This document shows, piece by piece, positions 1-11,677 of a stretch of 11,844 nt of DNA. The stretch's first letter is position 1, and each line of letters starts with the position of its first letter. Both the position numbers and the translations under genes were made by a program. This DNA is from a virus (lineage: Duplodnaviria > Heunggongvirae > Uroviricota > Caudoviricetes): IMG/VR virus record IMGVR_UViG_2695420685_000013; one strand, written 5' to 3'. The notes under the pieces were generated by a model. It was not told the origin of the DNA and did no database searches. It saw only the letters and a list, made by a program, of their open reading frames with translations.

Positions 1-605
1 CGGTCCGGCGCGGGGTGTGCGGTGATGTCCACACTCACCGGCTTACCGCTGCCGTTAATCAGGTTCACCGCCGATGTACCTGTCTCCGGCAGGGTCACCT
101 CACGGTCCAGTGTCAGGGTGCGGCTGGCGGCATCAATGGACAGGATGCGTCCGCCGGTCATGGTCCCGGCATAGTCGTTATCACAGATTTCAATAATGTC
201 ACCGGGTGTGTGACGCAGCCCCTGTGACCCGAGCGTGAAATCCACCGTCTGCGTTTCCAGCAGTCCGGTCTTTATCACCCACAGCCCGGCACGGTGGGCC
301 TGACCGCGACTGGTGCAGCCGAACGCATCCATCTTCAGCAGGTTGCGTCCGTAGCGCAGTATGGCTTCCGGGTCTTCCACCAGTTCCGTGGAGGTCTGCC
401 AGCCGTTATGCGGGTCGACGTAACTGACCTCCACCGCAGTATGACGGTCCTTCAGGGCGCTGAAACTGTAGCGGAATCCCACACCTTCATTGTCAGCCAC
501 CACATCACTGTTTGTGTAGGGCCACACCACATCTGACGGACGGTCCTGCACAAACGTCAGCGTCTGCCCGTTCCATACCGGCATACAGCGCCCACTTGTC
601 CACAT
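1..605 (-). pseudogene. J: Host specificity protein J (central tail fibre), downstream portion in a different reading frame from the J start; open to the window edge
   Basis: Hand translation of the minus strand from ~579 downward gives [28 protein letters not shown]..., which continues lambda-J-like sequence but in a frame offset from ORF 505..1488. This frame has a stop at 648-650 upstream and in-frame ATGs at 603-605 and 582-584; no stop seen down to at least position 480. Confidence 0.6.
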
Positions 606-1488
606 CCGCCGCCCCCAGACGTTTTCCCATTCCGTAGCGCGGGTGGGTCAGCATGTCCCACAGGCACCAGGCCGGGTTATTGCTGTATGCCGGTTTCAGG
701 CTGCCGTCCCAGATACCGCTGTAAGTGCGTTTTTCCGGGTCATAGTTTGACGGTACCTGAATGATGCGACCGCGGATATGGTAGTTCACCGTCATCTGCT
801 GGCCACCAAACTGCTCCGCATCCACCTGCAGCCCCACAATCGCCGTGTTCGGGTAGCACTGTTTCACATCGATGATTTCGGTGTATGACGACCAGAGCGT
901 CTTATTCTGCAGCTGGTCCGAGGTGCTGTCCGCCGTCTCCCGGACCATCCGGATGTTAAAAGGACGGGGAGGCAGATTATCCAGAATCACCGACGCCAGA
1001 AACTGCGAGGTGGTCTTGCCGTTAATGGTGACATCATTTTCCGTCACCCAGTTACCGTTACGCTGCAACTGAATCAGCAGTCGGACAGAAGAGGGATTAC
1101 GGTCGCCCTTTGAGGTGGTCTCCAACAGTGACTGCACCCCGAAGGTGACCCGCAGGCGGTCAATATTCGCGGACGTAATGGTGCGCGTCACCGGCTTTGC
1201 CTTCGTCACTTCCACGCCCAGTGCGGTTTCAGCTCCGGAAGACTCAAAGCCTTCAGGTGGTGTCTGCTCCTGCTCCCCGGCGCGCCAGACCGCTGTCACA
1301 CCATGTATCACAGGATTACCGTCCGTGTCCGTCAGCGGAGTTTTGTTCACCAGGATACTCTGCAACCCCTTCACCGGACCTTCAATCGGCCCTTCACCAA
1401 TGGCATCAATCACGCTCATCATCTGCGTGGACTTAAGATTGTCCTTTGCCTCAACCGGCGTGTGCGCCCTGCCGCCACCTTTACCCAT
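505..1488 (-). CDS. J: Host specificity protein J, N-terminal ~327 aa fragment ending at a premature in-frame stop
   Basis: ORF begins [39 protein letters not shown]..., which matches the lambda gpJ N-terminus as I recall it, through ...[15 protein letters not shown]; it then diverges into [25 protein letters not shown] and stops at 505-507. RBS GAGAGG lies 6 nt upstream of the ATG (reverse complement of 1495-1500). Confidence 0.85.
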
Positions 1489-1621
1489 AATGTTCCTCTC
1501 AATTGGTATTATTAATCGCAGTGATAGGATATTGCACAGCTATTGCGCGATATCATCAGAACGCTGTTTGTTACCCTGTAACCAGCAAGCTCAGTCTGTT
1601 AACGGAATTAATGAGGGTTTT

Positions 1622-2149
1622 ATGAAATGTAAAATCATTGCTGCCATTGCCATGCTGACAGCAGCATCATGCGGATACGCAGCAGAACAGGAAGTCCCAA
1701 TGAACCTTGTCAGTGCTGACGGAAAAGAAGTCAGCATTGGAAAAATAACCATTCAGGAGACCCCCTACGGTCTGCTGTTCACACCAGCCCTTCACTCTCT
1801 GTCTGAAGGCATTCATGGTTTTCATGTGCACGAAAAAGGAAATTGCGCCCCGGCACTGAAAGACGGAAAACCGGTCGCAGCATTATCGGCTGGCGGTCAC
1901 TTTGACCCGAAAAACACCGGCAAACATCTTGGCCCCTGGTCTCCGGATGGACACCTGGGCGACCTCCCTGCGCTGTTCGTGACGCATGACGGAAAAGCGA
2001 ACTACCCGGTCCTGGCCCCGAGACTGAACTCATTAAAAGAGATTAAAGGGCGTTCTCTCATGCTTCATGCTGGCGGTGATAACCATCATGACCATCCGGA
2101 GCCCCTGGGCGGTGGTGGTGCGAGAATGGCCTGCGGCATCATTCAATAA
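1622..2149 (+). CDS. sodC: Periplasmic copper/zinc superoxide dismutase (SodC family), phage-borne moron
   Basis: ATG at 1622 is preceded by GAGGG (1613-1617). Product [23 protein letters not shown]... has an N-terminal signal-peptide-like segment, the Cu,Zn-SOD motifs GFHVHE, GGHFDP and HLGDLP, and a C-terminal [12 protein letters not shown] matching Cu/Zn SOD signature 2. Stop TAA at 2147-2149. The six-frame ORF 1115..2149 is an artefactual 5' extension running antisense through J. Confidence 0.92.
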
Positions 2150-2155
2150 TCAGTC

Positions 2156-2184
2156 AGGTAAGGGGCGGGCCCCTTACCTTTATT
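2156..2184 (+). terminator. Rho-independent terminator-like hairpin immediately after sodC
   Basis: AGGTAAGGGGC (2156-2166) pairs with GCCCCTTACCT (2169-2179), followed by TTTATT. Starts 7 nt after the sodC stop. Confidence 0.55.
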
Positions 2185-2297
2185 CCTCAGGACGATAAAT
2201 CCTTTCTCCCTGAAAAGAACGGCACATCCTCCCTCTCTGAGTTAATGTTTTTGTCGTGACATAAGAATAATTCCTTACACTCAATCTTCGTAACGCT

Positions 2298-2340
2298 CCC
2301 GCAGTTCCTGTCCGTGAGCACTGCGGGATTTTTTCGCTTT
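2298..2340 (+). terminator. Second plus-strand terminator-like hairpin with T-tract, abutting the 3' end of gene I
   Basis: CCCGCAGT (2298-2305) pairs with ACTGCGGG (2320-2327) across a 14-nt loop, followed by ATTTTTTCGCTTTT. The orientation fits termination of plus-strand (sodC-direction) transcripts, not the minus-strand tail operon. Confidence 0.4.
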
Positions 2341-3020
2341 TATGCCTGCCGCCCGATAACCACCACCTTCCCGTCACCGCCTTCATCACGGGTACTGATG
2401 TCCTGGGAGATTCGCCGGGAGCCAACCAGCATTTCACCGTAAGGCACCGGCATCGGGTTCCCCTGGGCAATCATGTTATCCAGCGAGGAAAAGTACGTGT
2501 TCTGTCTGCCGTTATCCGTTGCGCGGTAATCCGGTGTTTTTGCCTTCGGGGCCAGCATCTGGGCCACACCGCCCAGAATCATGCTGGCTCCAAGTGAAAA
2601 CAGCATCGTGGTGGCAGAAAAACCACCGGCTGCCAGGGCTGAACCCCATAACGCCATTGATGCCCCGGCAGTGAAGAACGACCCCACGATGGCCGCCGCC
2701 CCCAGCACAATCTGCAGTCCACCCTTTCCGGCCCCGGCCAGTCGCGGCACAATGTGGATGACCGTTCCCTCACCCAGCTGTTCGTGAAGACGGGCGTACA
2801 CCGCCTCCGGTGCCGTGTCATCACCGGCAATACGTATCTGGTACCAGCCTTCGTTCATCTGACGGCGGAATCCCGGCATCTGCATCGACAGGGCACGGAT
2901 GGCTTCCGCTGCCGTGTTCACATACAGGCTGAGGCGGCGGCCAAATCGTTGTAAATCCCCGTGAAGGCAGATACGTGCCAGTGGCGGTGACGCCAGGCTG
3001 AATGCGTTCGTCGTTGCCAT
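2340..3020 (-). CDS. I: Tail tip assembly protein I
   Basis: 226 aa ORF; N-terminus MATTNAFSLASPPLARICLHGDLQRFGRR... and C-terminal region ...NTYFSSLDNMIAQGNPMPVPYGEMLVGSRRISQ resemble lambda gpI as recalled. Position between K and J matches lambda synteny. Confidence 0.9.
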   Translation of the reverse strand: MATTNAFSLASPPLARICLHGDLQRFGRRLSLYVNTAAEAIRALSMQMPGFRRQMNEGWYQIRIAGDDTAPEAVYARLHEQLGEGTVIHIVPRLAGAGKGGLQIVLGAAAIVGSFFTAGASMALWGSALAAGGFSATTMLFSLGASMILGGVAQMLAPKAKTPDYRATDNGRQNTYFSSLDNMIAQGNPMPVPYGEMLVGSRRISQDISTRDEGGDGKVVVIGRQA

Positions 3021-3661
3021 TTTTCGGAATACCTCTCCCGTTTACTCAGTTGTTCAGGCAGATGGTGAAGCAGTTCACCGTTGCCGCAGTATATGGCGGC
3101 ATGATTGGCCACCGATGCGCCAAAGCAGCACAGCAGGATATCGCCAGGCTGTGCGGAAGGCAGGGAAATCCTGTAAAAACCAGTCGCCTCCATATTGTCC
3201 AGGTACAGGTTCTGACCATTGCGCCACCAGTCATCCTCACGCTCAAAATCCGGCATATCAATTCCCGCCAGATGGTATGCATCCCGGAACAGCGTGTAAC
3301 AGTCCGTCACCCCGTGCTCAAAGAGCCGTCCTGTCAGATGTGGCACACAGCGGAATTTATGAATGTCCCCCCGGCAGACCAGCCACCAGGACAGTGCACT
3401 TTTTATCTGCAGCCGCCGGTCGGCCTCGCTCAGCCAGGGCAGACCACCGGGATGACTGTGGACCAGTGCCACAATCTCCCCCTGCATCTCTGCCCGCAGC
3501 CAGTCTTCCGGTGCAATACGAAAATACGCCTCCGGCTCTGCAGAGATATTCACACAAGGGATATACCGCTCCCCCTCCGGCGTTCTCACCACGAAGCCGC
3601 ACGACTCCGCAGGCGCACACCGCCGGGCATGCGCCAGAATCGCTGATTCAGTCTGTGTCAT
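2918..3661 (-). CDS. K: Tail tip assembly protein K (JAB/MPN metalloprotease-like plus NlpC/P60-like domains)
   Basis: Start placed at the internal ATG (3659-3661) giving MTQTESAILAHARRCAPAESCGF..., 10 nt downstream of the L stop; the longer six-frame ORF (to 3922) would overlap L. Contains a JAMM-like motif HSHPGGLPWLSEAD (HxHx7Sx2D) and a downstream Cys/His pair (GVTDCYTLF ... NHAAIY). The 3' end overlaps the I start by ~100 nt, out of frame. Confidence 0.88.
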   Translation of the reverse strand: MTQTESAILAHARRCAPAESCGFVVRTPEGERYIPCVNISAEPEAYFRIAPEDWLRAEMQGEIVALVHSHPGGLPWLSEADRRLQIKSALSWWLVCRGDIHKFRCVPHLTGRLFEHGVTDCYTLFRDAYHLAGIDMPDFEREDDWWRNGQNLYLDNMEATGFYRISLPSAQPGDILLCCFGASVANHAAIYCGNGELLHHLPEQLSKRERYSEKWQRRTHSAWRHRHWHVSAFTGIYNDLAAASACM

Positions 3662-3671
3662 AAACCGGGAT

Positions 3672-4370
3672 TTACTGCGAAAGTTTATTAATGGAAAGGA
3701 AACCGCCAAAATTAGCCACCATGCCGCGCATCTCACACCCGCGCATGCACTTGCTGCATCTGTCCTTACGGATATCCGTGGTGGGGTTGTCGAACTCATC
3801 CGCCACCGCAGGACCGTTATACCCGCATTCATCTCCCCGGTAATCCCACATACAGGTGTTCGCCAGCATGATGCGACCAGGAAACAGCGCCCCGTCCGTC
3901 TCCGTCGGTGTTGCCAGCACAAACGAGGCTGTCATGGCCGTCAGCTCTGACATCTGCTCCACCACCCAGCGGTCGCTCAGCTCCTGCTCCGGGTCCGCTT
4001 CCGGATTGCCCGCCACAAAATTCACCGCATCCAGAAAACGGGCATACACCCGGCGGCGGACCACCGTGGCCCCCACCAGGCTCTGCAGGTCCTCCGCCAT
4101 CCCGGTGACCAGACCAAACAGATTGGACACCGTCAGCGACGGTCTGGCACTGCTGCCCTTCCCGTTCATCTCAAAGCCACTGCCGTCAATCGGGTATGCC
4201 TGATATTGCCGCCCCTGCCAGGTAACCGCCTCCCCTTTTTCATTCAGCTCATTGCAGAAAAAATACCGCTCACCACCCTGTACCGTCAGGTCGATTTCCC
4301 AGAGTACCACCCGCGGTGACTGCTCTGATTTAACCGACTCGTTCAGACTTTCTTCGTGAATATCCTGCAT
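3672..4370 (-). CDS. L: Minor tail / tail tip protein L
   Basis: 232 aa, the same length as lambda gpL; MQDIHEESLNESVKSEQSPRVVLWEIDLT... with a C-terminal cysteine cluster (CMWDYRGDECGY ... CSKCMRGCEMRG). Its start ATG overlaps the M stop (TGATG). Confidence 0.92.
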   Translation of the reverse strand: MQDIHEESLNESVKSEQSPRVVLWEIDLTVQGGERYFFCNELNEKGEAVTWQGRQYQAYPIDGSGFEMNGKGSSARPSLTVSNLFGLVTGMAEDLQSLVGATVVRRRVYARFLDAVNFVAGNPEADPEQELSDRWVVEQMSELTAMTASFVLATPTETDGALFPGRIMLANTCMWDYRGDECGYNGPAVADEFDNPTTDIRKDRCSKCMRGCEMRGMVANFGGFLSINKLSQ

Positions 4371-4699
4371 CAGTTCACCACCTGCTTAAACTCGGCACTG
4401 AATTCAACCCGCAGCATGCGAACCCGTGATGACCAGGCGGCACAGGTCACCTTTATCTGCCGCCAGGCATAAGGCGGTGTCCACAGAAACGCCTTCCAGC
4501 CACCGTGCTCTGCCAGGAATGCCTCCAGATGTCGGGCCTCCTCCCGGGTCACGGAAAGCGTCACACGGTATGTTTTCAGGTCAGCATTCAGCCCCGCCGC
4601 CATACGCTGCGAATACCCGTCACCAAAACGCACTTCACGCACCGATGGCTGCGAGTTCACCTCCATATCCGGCTTCACTTTCCAGCGAAATGTTTTCAT
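4370..4699 (-). CDS. M: Minor tail protein M
   Basis: 109 aa, the same length as lambda gpM; position between H and L; start overlaps the H stop. Confidence 0.9.
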   Translation of the reverse strand: MKTFRWKVKPDMEVNSQPSVREVRFGDGYSQRMAAGLNADLKTYRVTLSVTREEARHLEAFLAEHGGWKAFLWTPPYAWRQIKVTCAAWSSRVRMLRVEFSAEFKQVVN

Positions 4700-7275
4700 C
4701 GCCTGCCTCCGGAAAAGACGCCGCCATCACGCATCTGCGCCTGAATCTCATCCTGCGCCCCCTTGCGGGCCATGTCATACACCGCCTTCATCAGCTGCGG
4801 CCCCGCCTGTCCGTTGGTGCCGTCGTTCTGAATCACCACGTGATTGTTCTGATTAAAATTAATGCCTTCCGTCCGCCGCATCTGCGCCGGACTTCCGGCA
4901 CCGCCCACATAACCACCTTCCGCATAGCCCCGCATCAGGCGGTACAGGTTGCCGACGCCAATCCGGCTGGTTGCTTCCTTCGTGAAGACAAACTCCCCGC
5001 GATGAACAATTCCCGCAGGTTCATATTTACCCCCCGTCCCCGTAAATCCCCCGGTCGCGAAATGGAAGTTCGCCGCCGCAGCCTGAATGGCCGTCCCCGT
5101 GGAGGCAGACGCACCACCACCGAAAGCACCGCCAATGGCGCTGCCGATACTCCCGACTATCCCCACCATCGCCTGCTTCAGAAAAATCTCTGTCAGCATG
5201 GAGAGCACAGAACGGGTGAAACCACGCCAGTTCTGTTCGCTGCCGGTCAGCATCGCTGCCATATTCTGTGCAATACCGTCAAAGGTCTGCGTGGCCACGC
5301 TTTTAACCTGCGAAAAACTGTCCGTCGCACTTTCTGCCCACTCGCCCCAGCCGGACTTCAGACCGGCCATCCAGCTTCCACGAAGCTGCTCCTCCGCAGA
5401 CCAGGTGTTCTTCAGTGCAGATGTGGCCTTCGCCAGCGCATCCGGATTATCACCGTACACGTCACGAAGGCGCTGCTCTTCCGACTCCCGCTGCGCCTGA
5501 CGGTCGGTGAGGCCCCGCGCCTGGGCACTGATTGCCGCCTGCTTCGCGCCCTGCTGCTGCTCAAACCGCGCAGCCTGCTGTGCCAGCTCATTCAGCCGTT
5601 TCTGGTGTTCAACTTTGTCTCCCAGCTCAGCCAGCTGGCGTTTGTACTCCAGCGTCTCTTTCTCATGGGTCAGCAGGGATTTTTCCTGCTCAGATAACTG
5701 CCGTTTCGTGGCTGCCTCTTTCAGGACCGCATACTGATTTTCCGCTTTCCATAAATCGCGACGCTGCTGGCTGATTTTCTCATTCGCACCGCTGTGTTTT
5801 TCCAGCGTCCGGAGCTCGGTTTCAAGCGCCAGCAGGGCAGCATGCGCCTGGTCTTCCTGACGCTCACCGGCTGACACTTTGACTCCTGACGACTTCGGCT
5901 TTTTCAGCGTCGATTCATAATCCTTTTTCGCCGCCGCCATCAGCGTGTTGTAATCCGCCTGCAGGATTTTCCCGTCTTTCAGGGCCTTATTCAGTTCTTC
6001 CTGACGGGCGGTATATTTCTCCAGCGGCGTCAGCAGACGCTCATACGCCTTCTGCGCCTCTCCGGTATACTTCAGCTGTGATGCGTCCCGTTCGGCCCGG
6101 TCCCTGGCGGCCAGTTCACCGGCTTTTTCCATATCCGACTGCAGCGTGGCCGCTGCCAGACCCAGACGGGCATTTTCCCGGTCATCCCATGCCCCCTGAA
6201 GGTTCGCACGAAAAGAGGAGGTCTTTCCCCGGCGCTGGCTCCGGCTCTGGTACCACTGCCATTTTTTATCCGCCTCATCAAATGCCTTCTGCGCACTGGC
6301 GAGCATATCCGCTGAGGATTCAGGACGACCGATATCCAGAATGGCATCCCACATCGATTTGAATGCCTTCCCTGTTTTATCCGCCCAGGTCTCCAGTGTT
6401 CCCATGTTTTCTTTCAGGCGACGGGTCTGCTCATCAAAGCCTTTCGTGGCGATATCGTTCGCCGCCTGCAATGCCCCGGCCTCGTCTCCGGAACGCTGCA
6501 GCTGTGCAACATACGCAATCTGCTCTGCCGTCACGTTACGGAACTGGCGCGCCATCGCCATCAGTCCCGACGTCGGGTCAGTGGTCAGCTTCCCGAAGGC
6601 TTCAGCGACTTTATCCACCTCCACACCGGATGCAGACGCAAAACGCGCGACACTCTGGTTGATGGCATCAAACTGTTCACCACCACGCACACCGGCATTC
6701 ACCAGGGCTGCCAGTGACTCTCTCGCCTGGTTAAACGTCAGCCCTGCGGCCTGTCCGGCTCTGGAGAGCGTCAGCATGCGATCGGCAGTCAGTCCGGACT
6801 GATTACCGGAAAGAACCAGGGTTTTATTAAACGCTGAAAGCGTGGAATCCCCCAGGTACCAGGCGTACGCAAGCGCACCTGTCGCCACCGCCAGCGAGGT
6901 GACCCCGACCATCGGCAGGGTGATCGCACCGGCAAGTCCCCTGAACATGGGGATCATCCCGCCGAAGGAGTCCTTCACCTGACCGCCCTGTTGCAGCAGG
7001 ATCAGCCAGGGATTCTGACCACCGGCAAGCTGCGTGGCGATATCCGTAAACTGTGCGGGCAGGGTTCGCATGGCCGCTTTATACTGCCCGACGGAAATCC
7101 CGGCTTTTTGTGCAGCCAGCGCCTGACGACTCAGGTTCTGCTCAACGACACCGGCGGTTTTTCTGGCGTCAGTCTCCAGTCCTGAAAAATGACGCCTTAC
7201 CCGGCTCATCTGCTCATCGAAACGGACCGCATCCAGACTCAGGTCAATAACAAGATCACCAACCGGCTGGGACAT
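4696..7275 (-). CDS. H: Tail tape measure protein H
   Basis: 859 aa ORF; N-terminus MSQPVGDLVIDLSLDAVRFDEQMSRVRRHFSG..., long coiled-coil-like central region rich in A/Q/E/K/R, and Gly-rich C-terminal region GGAFGGGASASTGTAIQAAAANFHFATGGFTGTGGKYEPAGIVHRGEFVF resemble lambda gpH as recalled. Strong RBS GGGAGG upstream of the ATG. Confidence 0.95.
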   Translation of the reverse strand: MSQPVGDLVIDLSLDAVRFDEQMSRVRRHFSGLETDARKTAGVVEQNLSRQALAAQKAGISVGQYKAAMRTLPAQFTDIATQLAGGQNPWLILLQQGGQVKDSFGGMIPMFRGLAGAITLPMVGVTSLAVATGALAYAWYLGDSTLSAFNKTLVLSGNQSGLTADRMLTLSRAGQAAGLTFNQARESLAALVNAGVRGGEQFDAINQSVARFASASGVEVDKVAEAFGKLTTDPTSGLMAMARQFRNVTAEQIAYVAQLQRSGDEAGALQAANDIATKGFDEQTRRLKENMGTLETWADKTGKAFKSMWDAILDIGRPESSADMLASAQKAFDEADKKWQWYQSRSQRRGKTSSFRANLQGAWDDRENARLGLAAATLQSDMEKAGELAARDRAERDASQLKYTGEAQKAYERLLTPLEKYTARQEELNKALKDGKILQADYNTLMAAAKKDYESTLKKPKSSGVKVSAGERQEDQAHAALLALETELRTLEKHSGANEKISQQRRDLWKAENQYAVLKEAATKRQLSEQEKSLLTHEKETLEYKRQLAELGDKVEHQKRLNELAQQAARFEQQQGAKQAAISAQARGLTDRQAQRESEEQRLRDVYGDNPDALAKATSALKNTWSAEEQLRGSWMAGLKSGWGEWAESATDSFSQVKSVATQTFDGIAQNMAAMLTGSEQNWRGFTRSVLSMLTEIFLKQAMVGIVGSIGSAIGGAFGGGASASTGTAIQAAAANFHFATGGFTGTGGKYEPAGIVHRGEFVFTKEATSRIGVGNLYRLMRGYAEGGYVGGAGSPAQMRRTEGINFNQNNHVVIQNDGTNGQAGPQLMKAVYDMARKGAQDEIQAQMRDGGVFSGGRR

Positions 7276-8127
7276 ATCTCACACCTCCCGGAATCCCCGC
7301 TGAAGCCATCATTAATGCGGCATCATCCACCATGACATCCGCCACATCCGCAGACGATAAAATATCGCGCCCTCCGTCCCCACCGAACCGGACGCCTCCG
7401 GCAAGTCCTGCCGCTTTCTGCATCAGCATTTTGTCCTCATCCGGCCTCTCCACCTGCTCTTCCTCATGCCGGGGGACAAGCAGACTGAAATCAGAGGGAT
7501 GCATATCCGGATCGCAAAAAAACAGGCTGAGTACGGCGTACGTCAGCCCGGAAAAATGCATATCCAGCTGGGTATCCTGAAAATAATGCGTGCGGTAAAA
7601 ACGGTGCCAGTCGGCATATTCGGTGGATGTCATCCCGGCAAGCATGGCGCGCCAGTCGGGTCTCCCCATCTCACGCGCCAGTCTGAGGGCAAAGTTCAGC
7701 TCGCCGTCGAAGACTTTCCCGCAGAAAAATCATCATCAGTCAGCGTGTTATTTTTCGCCACTTCAGTAATATCAGTATCCGGACGAACAGCTTCGATCAT
7801 CCCGGACAGACACAACACCACGTCTTCCGCCCGGGCAATGGCATCGGCAGGCCAGGTGGTGAGCACTTCCTGCTCTATCTTCATCACGGCCTCATTCATT
7901 GACGGTGACTGCGTTTTCTGTGGATGGTTATGCCACAGGGACATCGCCACCAGAAACGCGCCGGTTCTGACGAGATCTTCCACGCTTACCTGCAGGTTGC
8001 CGCTGGATTCTGCCTGTTCTGCACGCCGTTTCAGGAGGGCAAGATGCTCGATACGCTGCAGCGCAGACAATTCGGAAAGCGTGACAGACACACCGTTATA
8101 TTCAAATTGTTCTGTTTTCAGAAACAT
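7256..8127 (-). CDS. T: Tail assembly chaperone G-T fusion made by -1 programmed ribosomal frameshift (G frame from 8127 to the slippery site at 7714-7720, then T frame to the stop at 7256-7258)
   Basis: Minus strand reads ...GCG GGA AAG TCT...; slipping -1 on G GGA AAG continues as VFDGELNFALRLAREMGRPDWRAMLAGMTSTEYADWHRF..., which is the six-frame ORF 7256..7669 and resembles lambda gpT. The site sits 5 codons before the G stop, as in lambda. Confidence 0.8.
7696..8127 (-). CDS. G: Tail assembly chaperone G
   Basis: Start placed at the internal ATG (8125-8127) giving MFLKTEQFEYNGVSVTLSELSALQRIEHLALLKRRAEQAES..., with RBS GGAGG (reverse complement of 8133-8137) just after the V stop. The longer six-frame ORF (to 8199) would overlap V. 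Confidence 0.9.
   Translation of the reverse strand: MFLKTEQFEYNGVSVTLSELSALQRIEHLALLKRRAEQAESSGNLQVSVEDLVRTGAFLVAMSLWHNHPQKTQSPSMNEAVMKIEQEVLTTWPADAIARAEDVVLCLSGMIEAVRPDTDITEVAKNNTLTDDDFSAGKSSTAS
7714..7720 (-). other. Slippery heptamer G GGA AAG (programmed -1 ribosomal frameshift site for G-T)
   Basis: Reverse complement of plus-strand CTTTCCC at 7714-7720; the same heptamer and position as the known lambda G/G-T recoding site. Confidence 0.8.
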
Positions 8128-8140
8128 GTATGACCTCCGT

Positions 8141-8893
8141 TTACCCTGCAGCGCCCGCTTCAGTAACGGTGACTTCAGCCACTGCGGCGAACTGACCATT
8201 TCCGCTCACCACAGGGATCTGCACCTTACCTGTCGCCACGCCGTTTACCGTAATTGTCATATCTTTCACACTAATGGTGGCTTTCGACGGATCGGCGGAA
8301 ACCGCTCTGAACGTCTTGTCTGTTGCACTTTCCGGCTCAAAAGAAACCGTCAGGGTGGTTGTTTTCCCTTTTGCCACCGTACCGGATGTCGGCGTCACCT
8401 TAATCGCACTGACCGGCGTAATTTTGCTGCGTTCTTCCGCTACAGAAGGTTTACCCACGTTAGTGACTTTCACCGTGCGGGTGATCACTTCTTTCGCCGT
8501 CACGGCCTTACCGATACTGCTGACCCAGCCACGAAACACATCCACCGTGCCATTCGGAAAACGGATTTTATAGGCCCGGACATCGCCGCTTTCAAACCAG
8601 CCTATAAGCCCTTTCTGGCCTTCCTCTCCCGGTTTCCAGGCCAGCGTAAAACTGGTATCACCTGCAGATTTCTGCCCCTGCCCGGTCGCGGTCCAGTCCG
8701 CGTCTTCATCATCCAGGTAGTTATCATCGTAGGATTCTGCCGTCATCTCGCCCGGCGTCAGATCCTTCACCTTAGCCAGTCGCTGCCAGTCATCGTCTGA
8801 CAACGGGTTTGCATAAGCATCACCCTTGCCGTTGTAAACCCACAGAGTGGTACCGGCACCTTTTACCGGCTCAAGGGGATTTGGTGTTGCCAT
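8141..8893 (-). CDS. V: Major tail tube protein V with C-terminal Ig-like domain
   Basis: 250 aa; [57 protein letters not shown]... resembles lambda gpV. C-terminal segment ...[40 protein letters not shown] looks like a Big_2-type Ig-like fold. Confidence 0.95.
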
Positions 8894-8900
8894 ATCGTCC

Positions 8901-9296
8901 TCACATCTCGTATGTAATGGAATAAGTCAGATCTGCAGAACTCCATAACGCCATATCGTCATCACGACGATACTCATAGCCCTGCGTAACCATCGTGGTA
9001 ATCAGTCCTGCCAGTGCCGGGATCGCGGTCATCGCCGGGTAAATCCGGCTTTCCATCCACTGATCGAGCTCTGAATCCGGTACCTGTGCCGGTAAAAACA
9101 CCTCAATATGCAGTGTGGCCCGCCAGGTATCTGCATCCAGCTCTTCACCGGTATACTCTGCATCCGTCAGATAAACCGCGATCGCAGGAAAATCCTCTTC
9201 GTCAAAAACAACGGGGCGACCATCAAACAGCGTCGCCCCGTGTTCATGCTGCTCGAGTGCATCCAGCACTGCGGCACGAATGTCAGTGTGTTTCAT
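8901..9296 (-). CDS. U: Tail terminator protein U
   Basis: 131 aa, the same length as lambda gpU; [54 protein letters not shown].... Start overlaps the Z stop (ATGA). Confidence 0.93.
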
Positions 9297-9868
9297 CGTT
9301 TTATCGCAATCCTCAGTTGTTGTTTCAGCGCGTATGCCAGTTCTTTAGGCAGGCGTTCACGCCGGATACGGTCAACATTCTCATCAAATGCCTGTTTCAG
9401 TGGGGCCGCCATCGGGATTTTCACCACCTGAATGGGAAGGCGATTACGCTTTTTCCTTCCCTTGTCGTCATTGCCCTCCTTATATCTGGCCTGGGGAAGA
9501 CGTTGCATAACATGCCAGCGCCCATTATTTAATCGCTGGATAAATGCCCGCTGATAACGATGCTGACCGGCTTTGAGTATGCTGTTCGGACGACGCCCCA
9601 GCATTCTGATCCCCAGCTTAATCACAGGGAGATCACCGCGGTTAACGATAATTCTGGCATTCGGATTTCTGACCGTCGCCCGTTTCAGTCTGGACCGTTC
9701 CTTTACCAGTTTCCGTCTCACCCTGGTTTCCCGGGCAACCTGTGACGAAGACTGATTAATCGCCGTTGTGGCCACGCGGTTAATGGTCATTGCAGAAGCA
9801 GCCGGAATGGCGTTTTTACGAACCCGGCTCAGATTGTCAATCGCCTGATCAAGCCCTTTTATCGCCAT
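9293..9868 (-). CDS. Z: Tail completion protein Z
   Basis: 191 aa basic protein MAIKGLDQAIDNLSRVRKNAIPAASAMTINRVATTAINQSSSQVARETRVRRKLVKER... in the lambda Z position between FII and U. Confidence 0.88.
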   Translation of the reverse strand: MAIKGLDQAIDNLSRVRKNAIPAASAMTINRVATTAINQSSSQVARETRVRRKLVKERSRLKRATVRNPNARIIVNRGDLPVIKLGIRMLGRRPNSILKAGQHRYQRAFIQRLNNGRWHVMQRLPQARYKEGNDDKGRKKRNRLPIQVVKIPMAAPLKQAFDENVDRIRRERLPKELAYALKQQLRIAIKR

Positions 9869-9882
9869 AATTCACCCTGCGT

Positions 9883-10236
9883 TTATCGTCGCCGGTTAAC
9901 TGCGGGTGGTTGCCCACGGTTGAGCCAGAGATAACAGCTACCCCCGTCATCCGGAGAAACACGATCCACCCAGAATGTCTCACCATTAATGGTCAGCGTG
10001 TCACCACGCCGCACGGCACGAACCGTATCCGTCCGCACAAATAATGACGGGCTGCTTCCTTCAATACGGACCCCGCCACCGGCAAACCCCAGCGACTCCG
10101 GATCGTCAAAAACCCCCTGAACTTCGCTGCCACACTGTGCCCCCGAGGTGAACTGCGCACAGAGCCCCATCACTTCAACAATCGTTCTGTCCACCCCGGC
10201 AAGGGCAGCATCAAAGGAATTCTCAAAATCACGCAT
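9883..10236 (-). CDS. FII: Head-tail connector / head completion protein FII
   Basis: 117 aa, the same length as lambda gpFII; MRDFENSFDAALAGVDRTIVEVMG ... FWVDRVSPDDGGSCYLWLNRGQPPAVNRRR resembles lambda gpFII as recalled. Confidence 0.92.
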   Translation of the reverse strand: MRDFENSFDAALAGVDRTIVEVMGLCAQFTSGAQCGSEVQGVFDDPESLGFAGGGVRIEGSSPSLFVRTDTVRAVRRGDTLTINGETFWVDRVSPDDGGSCYLWLNRGQPPAVNRRR

Positions 10237-10597
10237 AAACGGCCATTCCGCTCCTGACCATGTCTTTTGCCACTGAGGGGGGCATCAGAATTACTCTGCC
10301 AGCATCAACATGCTCAACAGGCTCACCTGTTTCATCGTCAACACCGCACAGGTAAAAACACTTCAGAAGCCTGATACGTTCCAGAATACCAACGTCATCC
10401 TCACCGGTGTGCCTGCATGCCTGCTCATGAACGGTATCATCAACATCTGCGATTTCATTTTCCGAGGCGCAAACCTCCTCTTCCCACTCTGCCACACGCT
10501 GTGCGATATCCGCAGCACTCCCCGACATATCCGCCTCGCGCCCCAGCAGACCAGCCAGTTCACGAAGACGTTTCTGATTTTCTTCTTTTGTTGCCAT
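10229..10597 (-). CDS. FI: DNA packaging / head assembly accessory protein FI
   Basis: Start placed at ATG 10595-10597 (MATKEENQKRLRELAG...) with RBS GGGAG 8 nt upstream. The six-frame ORF start at 10645 is not an ATG and lies inside the upstream hairpin. Acidic protein in the lambda FI position; overlaps the FII start by 8 nt. Confidence 0.8.
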   Translation of the reverse strand: MATKEENQKRLRELAGLLGREADMSGSAADIAQRVAEWEEEVCASENEIADVDDTVHEQACRHTGEDDVGILERIRLLKCFYLCGVDDETGEPVEHVDAGRVILMPPSVAKDMVRSGMAVYA

Positions 10598-10612
10598 ATC
10601 CAGCTCCCTGTG

Positions 10613-10640
10613 AAAAAAACACGGGGGCATTTCGCCCCCG
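10613..10640 (-). terminator. Intrinsic-terminator-like GC hairpin plus U-tract between E and FI (minus-strand sense)
   Basis: Minus-strand RNA would read CGGGGGC-GAAAU-GCCCCCG followed by UGUUUUUUU (plus-strand 10622-10640 hairpin, A7 run at 10613-10619). It lies in the 51-nt E-FI intergenic gap. Confidence 0.6.
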
Positions 10641-10648
10641 CTCACGGA

Positions 10649-11677
10649 TTATTTCACCTGTACCACCACAAACTCATCCGGATCCGGCAGCACCATCAGC
10701 GGCGCGGACTGCGTCATGGTGAATTCACAGGACGGATCGCCCACGGTCAGCCAGTGTTTCGGGTAACGGGAAGAAGCCACCACTCCTTCAGACAACGCCT
10801 GTGCATCCTTAATGGCTCCATAGCAACGAATCCCCTCTGCTGCCGTATTCCCCAGCACCAGCGTGCCCTCCGGCAGATAACGTTTTTCGGTACCGTCCTC
10901 TGCCACATAAGACGTTTTCGCTACCACAATGGCCAGATCGCCGTAATACCCCTTGAAGGATACCACTGCGCCCAGATCTTTCACTGCCGTTTCGAGTTGT
11001 GAATTTGAGCCGCGACGGGTATCCATTTTTTCGCGGAAAAGCTTAAAGCCATTCAGCAGACGCCAGACGGTACCGTCCATAATGGCAATATTCACAAGAC
11101 CACTGGCCTGATCACAGAAAAGGTCGATATCATATGTCGGGTCGAACGTGTCACGATCCTGTTTTGACCACTCCTTACCGCTACCTTGTATGATGTTATT
11201 CTTCGTCGATCGGCCAAAATCGACTTCAATTTTCTCGAACTGGTCTCCTTCCATCGTATATTTGCCATACAGCACGGCATTCACCGCCTGCATTTCTTCC
11301 ACCTGCACAATAGCGTGCTCTTCCTGTTTGAGGTTATCAGTGATGATACGCAGACGACGGTAGGCCGGGTCGTTCAGCTGAGCCGGATCTTCACCGGGAA
11401 GGCGCTCAACCGCCTGCTGGTAATTAAATTCGTGTTTCGGCTTGACGTAGCCCGGACGCAACACGCGGGTTTCACCACCACGATGGCGCAGCACTTTTCC
11501 TTCAACGATCGGGGAGACATAGGCCGCCACCGGCGTTTTTCCGGTAATTTTGTCCAGCATCACCTCTTCGGTGTGGAAATTCACCGTACGGCGGAAAAAC
11601 AGCTCCAGAAACAGCGCACGAAATTTCACTTTTTGTTCGGTATAACCGAGTAACTGGCGGGTCGTAAACAATCCCAT
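10649..11677 (-). CDS. E: Major capsid protein E
   Basis: 342 aa; MGLFTTRQLLGYTEQKVKFRALFLELFFRR ... VSPIVEGKVLRHRGGETRVLRPGYVKPKHEFN ... AVNAVLYGKYTMEGDQFEKIEVDFGRS ... TRRGSNSQLETAVKDLGAVVSFKGYYGDLAIVV ... TMTQSAPLMVLPDPDEFVVVQVK is collinear with lambda gpE as recalled. RBS AGGAA upstream. Confidence 0.96.
   Translation of the reverse strand: MGLFTTRQLLGYTEQKVKFRALFLELFFRRTVNFHTEEVMLDKITGKTPVAAYVSPIVEGKVLRHRGGETRVLRPGYVKPKHEFNYQQAVERLPGEDPAQLNDPAYRRLRIITDNLKQEEHAIVQVEEMQAVNAVLYGKYTMEGDQFEKIEVDFGRSTKNNIIQGSGKEWSKQDRDTFDPTYDIDLFCDQASGLVNIAIMDGTVWRLLNGFKLFREKMDTRRGSNSQLETAVKDLGAVVSFKGYYGDLAIVVAKTSYVAEDGTEKRYLPEGTLVLGNTAAEGIRCYGAIKDAQALSEGVVASSRYPKHWLTVGDPSCEFTMTQSAPLMVLPDPDEFVVVQVK

What the first reader, a model, noticed from the sequence alone, without database searches (positions are those of the whole stretch)
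1..1488. Host-specificity gene J is frame-disrupted about 300 codons in
The J ORF starting at 1488 reads like lambda J through ...[10 protein letters not shown] (codons at 583-597), then gives 26 unrelated residues and stops at 505-507. J-like sequence resumes in a different frame from ~590 downward ([20 protein letters not shown]...) and stays open to the window edge. The KWALY codons and the RCM codons overlap on the DNA (583-597 versus 582-590). Compared with lambda J as I recall it, roughly 40-odd residues between these two blocks are absent, so this looks like a deletion of non-multiple-of-3 length rather than a simple 1-nt slip. An intact J is needed for receptor (LamB-type) recognition and tail tip assembly in lambda, so this prophage may be unable to make infectious particles, or the read may carry an assembly error. 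The recalled lambda segment is from memory and is the weakest part of the claim; the frame break itself is seen directly.
Basis: partly seen in the sequence, partly recalled or inferred. Interest (0 to 1): 0.55.

Follow-up and report, generated by a model that had tools for sequence, protein, structure and literature searches.

The report
Prophage tail gene J broken by deletion
The tail-tip gene J of a lambda-like prophage in an E. coli draft genome has lost 140 bases between two copies of a 12-base repeat, which shifts the reading frame and makes it a pseudogene, an ordinary case of prophage decay.

Summary
On the minus strand, J starts at 1488 and matches intact J proteins through residue 303 (…KWALYA). 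It then reads 24 out-of-frame codons and stops at 505-507. J-like sequence resumes in another frame at 590 and stays open to the window edge.

Compared with intact J genes (phage BP-4795, about 99% identical; lambda; several E. coli prophages), the window lacks exactly 140 nt. In the intact genes this stretch is bounded by a perfect 12-nt direct repeat, GCGCTGTATGCC. One copy remains at 580-591. It is the only direct repeat of 12 nt or more within 300 nt in that gene.

The best explanation is slippage or short-homology recombination between these repeats, leaving a J pseudogene in an otherwise intact tail module.

The identical truncated protein is on four contigs from at least three E. coli assemblies. 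The lesion is therefore inherited and not a one-off assembly error, although a shared pipeline artefact is not fully excluded.

The junction was not found among 9,435 J copies in complete E. coli genomes. Five of the ten closest J genes are pseudogenes through other lesions, so J decay is routine here. Interest is low.

The parts
505..1488 (-). Truncated J ORF of 327 aa: 303 native N-terminal residues (including the FNIII-A domain), then 24 out-of-frame residues, then a stop at 507-505
   Evidence: ORF list and translation. Pfam PF24801 FNIII-A_GpJ, E = 2.5e-42. 99.9% nucleotide identity to BP-4795 J over 908 nt. The source record names it 'host specificity protein [Escherichia coli]', CTT60053.1.
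580..591 (-). Deletion junction: the single surviving copy of the 12-nt direct repeat GCGCTGTATGCC (read on the minus strand)
   Evidence: The two BLAST pieces overlap by 12 nt in the window. The repeat lies at L001 3897-3908 and 4037-4048 in BP-4795, 140 nt apart. DEC5B and 493/89 carry the same pair, and lambda carries a 10-nt version.
508..579 (-). 24 out-of-frame codons ([24 protein letters not shown]) that are really J codons 350 onward read in the wrong frame
   Evidence: Translations in the two frames.
1..590 (-). Downstream J remnant in the shifted frame, corresponding to residues 347-542 of the intact protein. It is open to the contig end. In-frame ATGs lie at 605-603 and 584-582.
   Evidence: Translation without stops. 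Pfam PF13550 Phage-tail_3 matches from profile position 19 onward, so the first ~18 positions are lost. 98.1% nucleotide identity to BP-4795 J.
577..589 (.). One arm of a 13-nt perfect inverted repeat (partner at 682-694). It overlaps the surviving direct-repeat copy.
   Evidence: the repeat finder pair I1. The same inverted-repeat pair sits at a rearrangement joint in the Shigella sonnei J allele.
682..694 (.). The other arm of the 13-nt inverted repeat (ACCGGCATACAGC on the J coding strand)
1622..2149 (+). sodC (Cu,Zn superoxide dismutase, 175 aa), a cargo gene between tail genes I and J on the opposite strand. It is intact.
   Evidence: Gene call with PF00080 Sod_Cu. Annotated as sodC, WP_000649829.1, at the same position in the related prophages.
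2340..11677 (-). The rest of the lambda-like head-tail module: I, K, L, M, H, T, G, V, U, Z, FII, FI, E. All ORFs are open. All but FI and Z have the same length as in the 493/89 relative.
   Evidence: Gene calls with Pfam families, compared with the RefSeq annotation of strain 493/89. The G/T slippery heptamer GGGAAAG lies at 7714-7720.

Best explanation
This is gene J (the tail-tip / central-fibre 'host specificity' protein) of a sodC-carrying lambda-like prophage of E. coli. A 140-bp deletion between two copies of a 12-bp direct repeat has turned it into a pseudogene.

Mechanism (inferred). The ancestral gene carried GCGCTGTATGCC twice, 140 bp apart. One copy encodes A-L-Y-A. The other lies in a different frame within M-R-C-M-P. 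Slipped-strand mispairing during replication, or short-homology recombination between the copies, removed one copy and the 128 bp between them. Because the two copies sit in different frames, the deletion has to shift the frame.

Consequence (partly shown, partly inferred). Translation from the J start gives 303 native residues plus 24 out-of-frame residues, then stops. Residues 304-350 of the hub region are gone. The remaining ~800 codons are out of frame. They hold the hub domain, the FNIII repeats, the fibre and the receptor-binding domain.

In lambda, gpJ forms the trimeric tip on which the tail is assembled. This prophage therefore cannot make its own tails. It is a decaying resident, unless another lambdoid prophage in the cell supplies J or repairs the gene by recombination.
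For: Shown directly:
- The frame break is at the stated coordinates.
- Exactly 140 nt are missing relative to BP-4795 J. The 12-nt repeat lies at both borders of the intact gene, and one copy is kept in the window.
- The same repeat pair occurs in O55:H7 DEC5B and O157 493/89. Lambda has a 10-nt version at the same spacing.
- It is the only direct repeat of 12 nt or more within 300 nt in BP-4795 J. Shuffled sequence gives 0.06 on average.
- No foreign DNA and no Ns lie at the junction.
- The missing residues align with residues of solved lambda gpJ (8IYK and others). The deletion removes the first ~18 positions of Pfam PF13550.

Evidence that it is inherited:
- The exact 327-aa product is on 4 contigs in GCA_001277535.1 (this window), GCA_001286305.1 and GCA_966508555.1.
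- The contig ends differ between these assemblies. There are 0 to 1 SNPs across the shared tail region.

Context:
- Of the ten closest sodC-adjacent J genes in complete genomes, five are pseudogenes through different lesions: a nonsense codon, 1-nt insertions or frameshifts, and an IS3 insertion.
- In GCA_966508555.1 the same J also carries a second frameshift, G4 to G5.
- Defective lambdoid prophages with frameshifts, deletions and IS insertions are documented in E. coli O157 (PMC2669165).

From established knowledge, not tested here: gpJ is a structural part of the tail tip (PMC10721106, PMC11101478), and lambda J mutants make no tails.
Against: - No raw reads could be examined.
- By my recollection, not verified, the two 2015 E. 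coli assemblies and the S. sonnei assembly may come from one high-throughput pipeline whose gap-closing step merges sequence ends on overlaps of 10 nt or more. The origin of the 2025 assembly is unknown. The three assemblies are therefore not proven to be technically independent.
- The junction was found nowhere else: 0 of 9,435 J copies in 4,256 complete E. coli genomes, and none in phage genomes, IMG/VR, JGI metagenomes or GTDB species representatives.
- The deleted interval has no unusual DNA secondary structure that would favour slippage (z = -0.69).
- Loss of tail production was inferred, not measured.
Confidence: 0.85

Rival explanations
1. Assembly or library artefact. The genome holds an intact J, and the 140-nt gap was produced when a scaffolding or gap-closing step merged two sequence ends on the 12-nt overlap, or when chimeric library molecules were assembled.
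For: - The junction is absent from all complete E. coli genomes, phage genomes and contig collections searched.
- The only other junction-bearing sequence found is a 2015 Shigella sonnei draft. There it sits next to an inverted duplication that has a single N at one joint, which looks like a scaffold join.
- In the window and in L004 the junction lies only about 590 and 250 nt from a contig end.
- J is multi-copy in such genomes, with a median of 3 places per genome, and that fragments short-read assemblies.
Against: - The same junction occurs in at least 3 E. coli assemblies with different contig boundaries. One of them continues 3.1 kb past the junction.
- There are no Ns in any of these contigs.
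- A 12-nt repeat is far shorter than any usual assembly k-mer. A false merge would need both sequence ends to stop exactly at the repeat copies.
- Deletion between short direct repeats is a well-known real mutation class.
Confidence: 0.1
2. The split gene is still functional. The downstream part would be made by a +1 ribosomal frameshift, or by re-initiation at the ATG at 605-603 ([11 protein letters not shown]...) or at 584-582. The pieces would then act together as a tail tip or in some new role.
For: - In-frame ATGs lie just upstream of and at the junction in the downstream frame, preceded by a G-rich run (sequence; ORF 9212..10711 in L002).
- Both fragments keep recognisable domains.
- The rest of the tail module is intact.
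Against: - Forty-six conserved hub residues are physically missing whatever the frame.
- All homologues encode one continuous protein.
- No slippery motif is conserved at this site, and the arrangement is confined to one small lineage.
- In L002 the downstream piece is broken again by a second frameshift, as expected under relaxed selection.
Confidence: 0.03
3. The loss was adaptive: J was inactivated by selection, for example to stop release of infectious phage while keeping the cargo genes sodC and lom, rather than by neutral decay.
For: - J is hit repeatedly by different lesions in the closest relatives (5 of 10) while sodC and lom stay intact.
Against: - J is about 3.5 kb, by far the largest target after H, so frequent neutral hits are expected.
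- Losing J does not prevent induction or lysis, so the host gains little directly.
- Some annotated frameshifts in long-read genomes may be sequencing errors.
- No test of selection was possible.
Confidence: 0.02

Closest known systems
Lambda gpJ (tip attachment protein J, central tail fibre; PDB 8IYK, 8K35, 8XCG) and its intact orthologue in phage BP-4795 (ORF72, YP_001449309.1, 1158 aa)
   Same: Both fragments are clearly J. The N-terminal 303 residues and residues 347-542 align colinearly. They carry the FNIII-A_GpJ and Phage-tail_3 domains. The gene sits after tail genes L-K-I, and in the longer sister contig it lies before lom.
   Different: There is no continuous ORF. 140 nt (residues 304-350) are missing and the frame is shifted. 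A sodC gene lies between I and J. BP-4795 and lambda do not have it there.
Defective lambdoid prophages of E. coli O157/O55 ('defective prophage pool', Asadulghani et al. 2009, PMC2669165)
   Same: It is a lambda-like prophage with cargo genes and an inactivating lesion in a morphogenesis gene. The closest complete-genome relatives are O55:H7 and O157 prophages, several of which have a pseudogenised J.
   Different: This particular lesion, the 140-bp repeat-mediated deletion, was not seen in any of 5,426 complete E. coli genomes. Only the tail and head part of the prophage is available, so other defects and inducibility are unknown.
Deletions between short direct repeats (slipped-strand mispairing or RecA-independent short-homology recombination, classically mapped in E. 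coli lacI). This comparison rests on my own knowledge.
   Same: There are perfect repeats at both borders in the ancestor, one copy is kept, nothing is inserted, and the repeats are close together (140 bp).
   Different: The mechanism itself cannot be shown from sequence. No hairpin-forming potential was found in the deleted interval.
Programmed -1 frameshift of lambda G/GT
   Same: Two overlapping reading frames in a tail gene. The real G/T site (GGGAAAG) is present elsewhere in the window, at 7714-7720.
   Different: At the J break there is no slippery heptamer. Restoring the frame would need +1. Homologues have a single ORF and sequence is physically missing, so this is a mutation and not recoding.

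Membership tests
Lambda J / TipJ tail-tip protein gene | N-terminal hub region with the FNIII-A insertion | tested here: met
   PF24801, E = 2.5e-42, at residues 86-207 of the 327-aa ORF. The intact BP-4795 J, which the window matches at ~99% nucleotide identity, aligns with lambda gpJ.
Lambda J / TipJ tail-tip protein gene | Complete Phage-tail_3 hub domain (PF13550) | tested here: not met
   The match in the downstream fragment starts at profile position 19 of 164. In intact BP-4795 J it starts at position 1 (residue 330). The first ~18 positions lie in the deleted 140 nt.
Lambda J / TipJ tail-tip protein gene | One continuous ORF of about 1,130-1,160 codons | tested here: not met
   The ORF stops at 505-507 after 327 codons and the rest is in another frame. 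In sister contig L002 the gene is in three ORFs. It is therefore filed as a J pseudogene, not a functional J.
Lambda J / TipJ tail-tip protein gene | Position in the tail module: after L, K, I and before lom | tested here: met
   Gene order in the window and in L002. Related prophages have the same order.
Lambda J / TipJ tail-tip protein gene | C-terminal fibre and receptor-binding domain | tested here: inconclusive
   These lie outside the window. In L002 the domains (PF09327, PF12421) are present, but in a separate ORF behind a second frameshift.
Deletion between short direct repeats | Identical repeat at both borders of the missing segment in intact relatives, and one copy left at the junction | tested here: met
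   GCGCTGTATGCC at L001 3897 and 4037, with a single copy at window 580-591.
Deletion between short direct repeats | No inserted or foreign sequence at the junction | tested here: met
   The flanks align base for base with BP-4795 up to the repeat on both sides.
Deletion between short direct repeats | Arises by replication slippage or RecA-independent recombination | not testable with these tools
   Needs genetics. Only the sequence footprint is available.
Programmed ribosomal frameshift | Frame change conserved among homologues, with a slippery site | tested here: not met
   Homologues have one ORF and 140 more nucleotides. There is no GGGAAAG-type site at 560-610.
Assembly artefact | Junction confined to one assembly, or marked by Ns or scaffold joins | tested here: not met
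   Four contigs in at least 3 assemblies, with no Ns.
Assembly artefact | Junction not supported by raw reads | not testable with these tools

The most novel reading that the evidence does not exclude
The conserved short motif in J makes this spot a recurrent rearrangement hotspot. The motif occurs as two direct copies 140 bp apart (10 nt in lambda-type alleles, 12 nt in this one) and as a 13-nt inverted copy 245 bp upstream of the second direct copy. On this reading, the same 140-bp deletion arose independently in two J alleles. One is this E. coli prophage. The other is a lambda-like J in Shigella sonnei, which differs by 10% and 23% on the two sides of the junction. In S. sonnei it comes with an inverted duplication joined through the inverted copy.
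Probability: 0.3. Interest if true: 0.25.

Novelty: already known. Interest (0 to 1): 0.12.

Why it matters
The main value is for annotation. The source record names the 327-aa fragment 'host specificity protein', but it should be treated as a pseudogene. Prophage-completeness tools would probably still score this tail module as intact.

It is also a clean, base-resolved example of how a resident lambdoid prophage loses infectivity while keeping cargo genes such as sodC and lom. The 140-bp deletion could serve as a PCR marker for this small E. coli lineage. It does not reveal a new system or mechanism.

Tried and rejected
**Junction searches that found nothing**
- The junction 40-mer against 5,426 complete E. 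coli genomes and against 50,697 phage records gave no match.
- Exact and degenerate junction patterns in the GTDB species representatives, JGI metagenomes and IMG/VR gave no match.
- A 42-nt probe (TGG + repeat + 27 nt) was designed so that junction-bearing copies would rank first. Every best hit started at query position 4, so none of 9,435 J copies has the junction.

**Other tests with negative or limited results**
- A hairpin-assisted slippage model is not supported. The deleted interval folds no better than shuffles (z = -0.69).
- Rfam and tRNA scans of the window found nothing.
- The protein search with a 58-aa junction peptide returned only proteins of 101 aa or less and did not return the window's own 327-aa protein. 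It is therefore not a census of junction-bearing ORFs.
- Other members of the 90% cluster that have similar lengths are ordinary contig-end partials, not deletion products.

**Hypotheses rejected**
- I tested whether the second frameshift in L002 is shared with the frameshifted J of strain 493/89. It is not. The lesions are at different positions.
- Programmed frameshifting and a functional split gene were considered and rejected, for the reasons given under the rival explanations.

Full report
**What is in the sequence**

The window is a complete 11,844-bp contig, CYAQ01000075.1, of the E. coli draft assembly GCA_001277535.1. Read on the minus strand, it carries a lambda-like late module: E, FI, FII, Z, U, V, G, T, H, M, L, K, I. 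A sodC gene follows on the plus strand at 1622-2149, and then comes J.

The J ORF starts with ATG at 1488 and stops at 505-507, giving 327 aa. Its product is J-like through ...[12 protein letters not shown] and then reads [24 protein letters not shown]. The frame that begins at 590 reads [20 protein letters not shown]... and stays open for 196 codons to the contig end.

From the ruler, the KWALY codons are 597-583 and the RCM codons are 590-582. The out-of-frame tail is 24 residues (25 relative to lambda), not 26.

**What happened**

All related J genes in phage genomes and complete E. coli genomes align to window 1-1600 in two pieces that span 140 more bases than the window.

The closest phage is BP-4795. 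Its J is annotated as one 1,158-aa protein. Against it:
- The upstream piece is 99.9% identical over 908 nt.
- The downstream piece is 98.1% identical over 591 nt.
- The two pieces overlap by 12 nt in the window.

Those 12 nt, GCGCTGTATGCC, occur twice in BP-4795 J, exactly 140 nt apart. The window keeps one copy, at 580-591, and lacks the other copy together with the 128 nt between them.

The first copy encodes A300-L-Y-A303. The second lies in another frame within M346-R-C-M-P350. A deletion between them therefore cannot preserve the frame (140 = 3 x 47 - 1).

The same 12-nt pair is present in the related prophages of O55:H7 DEC5B and O157 493/89. Lambda J has a 10-nt version at the same spacing. 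In BP-4795 J this is the only direct repeat of 12 nt or more within 300 nt. Shuffled sequence gives 0.06 on average.

This is the classic footprint of a deletion between short direct repeats, by replication slippage or short-homology recombination. That mechanism is inferred from the footprint and from established knowledge. The deleted interval shows no special hairpin potential (z = -0.69).

**What is lost**

The missing residues 304-350 are conserved in lambda gpJ, whose tail-tip structure is solved (8IYK, 8K35, 8XCG).

Pfam places FNIII-A at residues 86-207 and the Phage-tail_3 hub domain from residue 330. In the window's downstream fragment the hub-domain match begins only at profile position 19.

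According to the structural papers, the N-terminal part of gpJ (HDII, HDII-insertion with FNIII-A at residues 72-215, HDIII, HDIV) forms the trimeric conical tip together with gpL and gpI (PMC10721106, PMC11101478).

Everything from residue 304 onward cannot be made from the J start codon. That includes the rest of the hub, FNIII-1/2, the fibre and the receptor-binding domain. From established lambda genetics (my knowledge, not tested here), J-defective phage make no tails.

The remaining genes of the module are open. All but FI and Z have the same length as in the RefSeq annotation of strain 493/89.

**Real or artefact?**

The exact 327-aa product is recorded on four contigs. They come from this assembly, GCA_001286305.1 (L004) and GCA_966508555.1 (L002, plus one similar place not shown).
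- L004 differs from the window by one SNP in 8,462 nt and ends at a different position.
- L002 is identical to the window over window 1-9065 and diverges only at a mosaic boundary near 9066-9430.
- L002 continues 3.1 kb past the junction, through the rest of J and lom.
- None of these contigs contains an N.

A 12-nt repeat is too short to mislead a k-mer assembler. I therefore take the deletion as real and inherited in a small lineage, with confidence about 0.85.

The residual doubt, about 0.1, has three sources:
- I could not see any reads.
- The 2015 ENA drafts may share one pipeline whose gap-closing step merges ends on short overlaps. This is my recollection and is not verified.
- The junction appears nowhere else.

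The junction is absent from 5,426 complete E. coli genomes, from phage records, and from IMG/VR, JGI metagenomes and GTDB species representatives. A probe designed to rank junction-bearing copies first found none among 9,435 J copies.

**Context: J decay is routine in this prophage family**

I looked at the ten closest sodC-adjacent J genes in complete genomes.

| Strain | State of J |
|---|---|
| OkiPb01688 | intact |
| C325 | intact |
| Z1323HEC0422 | intact |
| JEONG-1266 | intact |
| ESDR8 | intact |
| DEC5B | pseudogene, nonsense at codon 934 |
| 493/89 | pseudogene, one inserted T |
| LSU61 | pseudogene, frameshifted |
| 2013C-3264 | pseudogene, IS3 insertion plus frameshift |
| OkiPb01713 | pseudogene, frameshifted |

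Some of these frameshifts could be sequencing errors.

In L002 the window's own allele carries a second lesion outside the window. A G4 run has become G5, which splits the downstream part again. That product is on two contigs.

This matches the published picture of lambdoid prophages in O157. They carry frameshifts, deletions and IS insertions, yet they can still be complemented by, or recombine with, co-resident prophages (PMC2669165). J-like sequence is multi-copy in these genomes, with a median of 3 places per genome, so rescue in trans or by recombination is plausible.

**A possible second occurrence**

A search with the junction peptide found a 48-aa ORF in a Shigella sonnei draft (P0016; GCA_001251315.1). 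Its J allele is lambda-like and clearly different from the window's. It has 10 mismatches in the 100 nt to the left of the junction and 70 in the 300 nt to the right. Even so, it has the same repeat-to-repeat junction.

That allele also carries a 161-nt insertion. The insertion is an inverted copy of J nucleotides 1040-1197. It is joined through a 13-nt inverted repeat, ACCGGCATACAGC / GCTGTATGCCGGT, that overlaps the direct repeat, and one joint has a single N. The same inverted repeat is present in the window at 577-589 and 682-694.

Two readings are possible. Either this is a real, independent, more complex template-switch rearrangement, which would make the site a hotspot, or it is a scaffold artefact. 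I could not decide between them.

**Rivals considered**

- Programmed frameshifting or a functional split gene is very unlikely. Sequence is physically missing, homologues have one ORF, no slippery site is present, and the downstream part is broken again in L002.
- Adaptive loss of J cannot be tested here. Because J is a large target, it is not needed to explain the data.

**Verdict**

The feature is an ordinary prophage pseudogene, formed by a 140-bp deletion between 12-bp direct repeats. Interest is low (0.12). The only mildly novel possibility is that the site is a recurrent hotspot.

Noticed in passing
window 1622-2149 (+): An intact sodC (Cu,Zn superoxide dismutase, 175 aa) lies between tail genes I and J on the opposite strand. 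The identical protein (WP_000649829.1) sits at the same place in all ten related E. coli prophages inspected. BP-4795 and lambda have no gene there.
   Followed up: partly
L002 10669-10673 (sister contig, GCA_966508555.1; beyond the window edge): The same J allele has a second frameshift. A GGGG run is GGGGG, which ends the middle fragment at ...LHLAQG and splits J into three ORFs. The resulting 481-aa product is recorded on two contigs.
   Followed up: yes
L016 5027-8461 (Shigella sonnei GCA_001251315.1, contig CWWC01000017.1): A different, lambda-like J allele has the same repeat-to-repeat 140-nt junction. It also has a 161-nt inverted duplication of J nt 1040-1197, joined through a 13-nt inverted repeat, with a single N at one joint (L016 5836). 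This is either a complex template-switch rearrangement or a scaffold artefact.
   Followed up: partly
window 577-589 and 682-694: A perfect 13-nt inverted repeat lies inside J (ACCGGCATACAGC / GCTGTATGCCGGT). One arm overlaps the surviving direct-repeat copy. It is conserved in lambda J (nt 795-807 and 1040-1052).
   Followed up: partly
L005, L007, L009, L010, L013 (complete E. coli genomes): Five of the ten closest sodC-adjacent J genes are annotated pseudogenes with different lesions: DEC5B nonsense at codon 934, 493/89 +T, LSU61 and OkiPb01713 frameshifts, and 2013C-3264 IS3 insertion. None has the 140-nt deletion.
   Followed up: yes
window 7714-7720 (-): The lambda-type G/GT slippery heptamer GGGAAAG lies about 16 nt before the stop codon of G. 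It is consistent with the conserved -1 programmed frameshift that makes G-T.
   Followed up: no
window about 9066-9436 and beyond (Z/U region): There is a mosaic boundary here. Sister contig L002 is identical to the window from 1 to 9065, has 6 SNPs at 9066-9430, and is only 94% identical beyond that. This points to recombination with another lambdoid prophage at the head-proximal side.
   Followed up: partly
window 1486-1488 vs L001 3000-3002: J starts with ATG here, but with GTG at the same position in BP-4795. The similarity to BP-4795 begins exactly at the J start, because BP-4795 lacks the sodC insert.
   Followed up: no
(method): The word-indexed protein search with a 58-aa query returned only proteins of 101 aa or less and missed the window's own 327-aa protein. 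It cannot be used to count junction-bearing ORFs.
   Followed up: no
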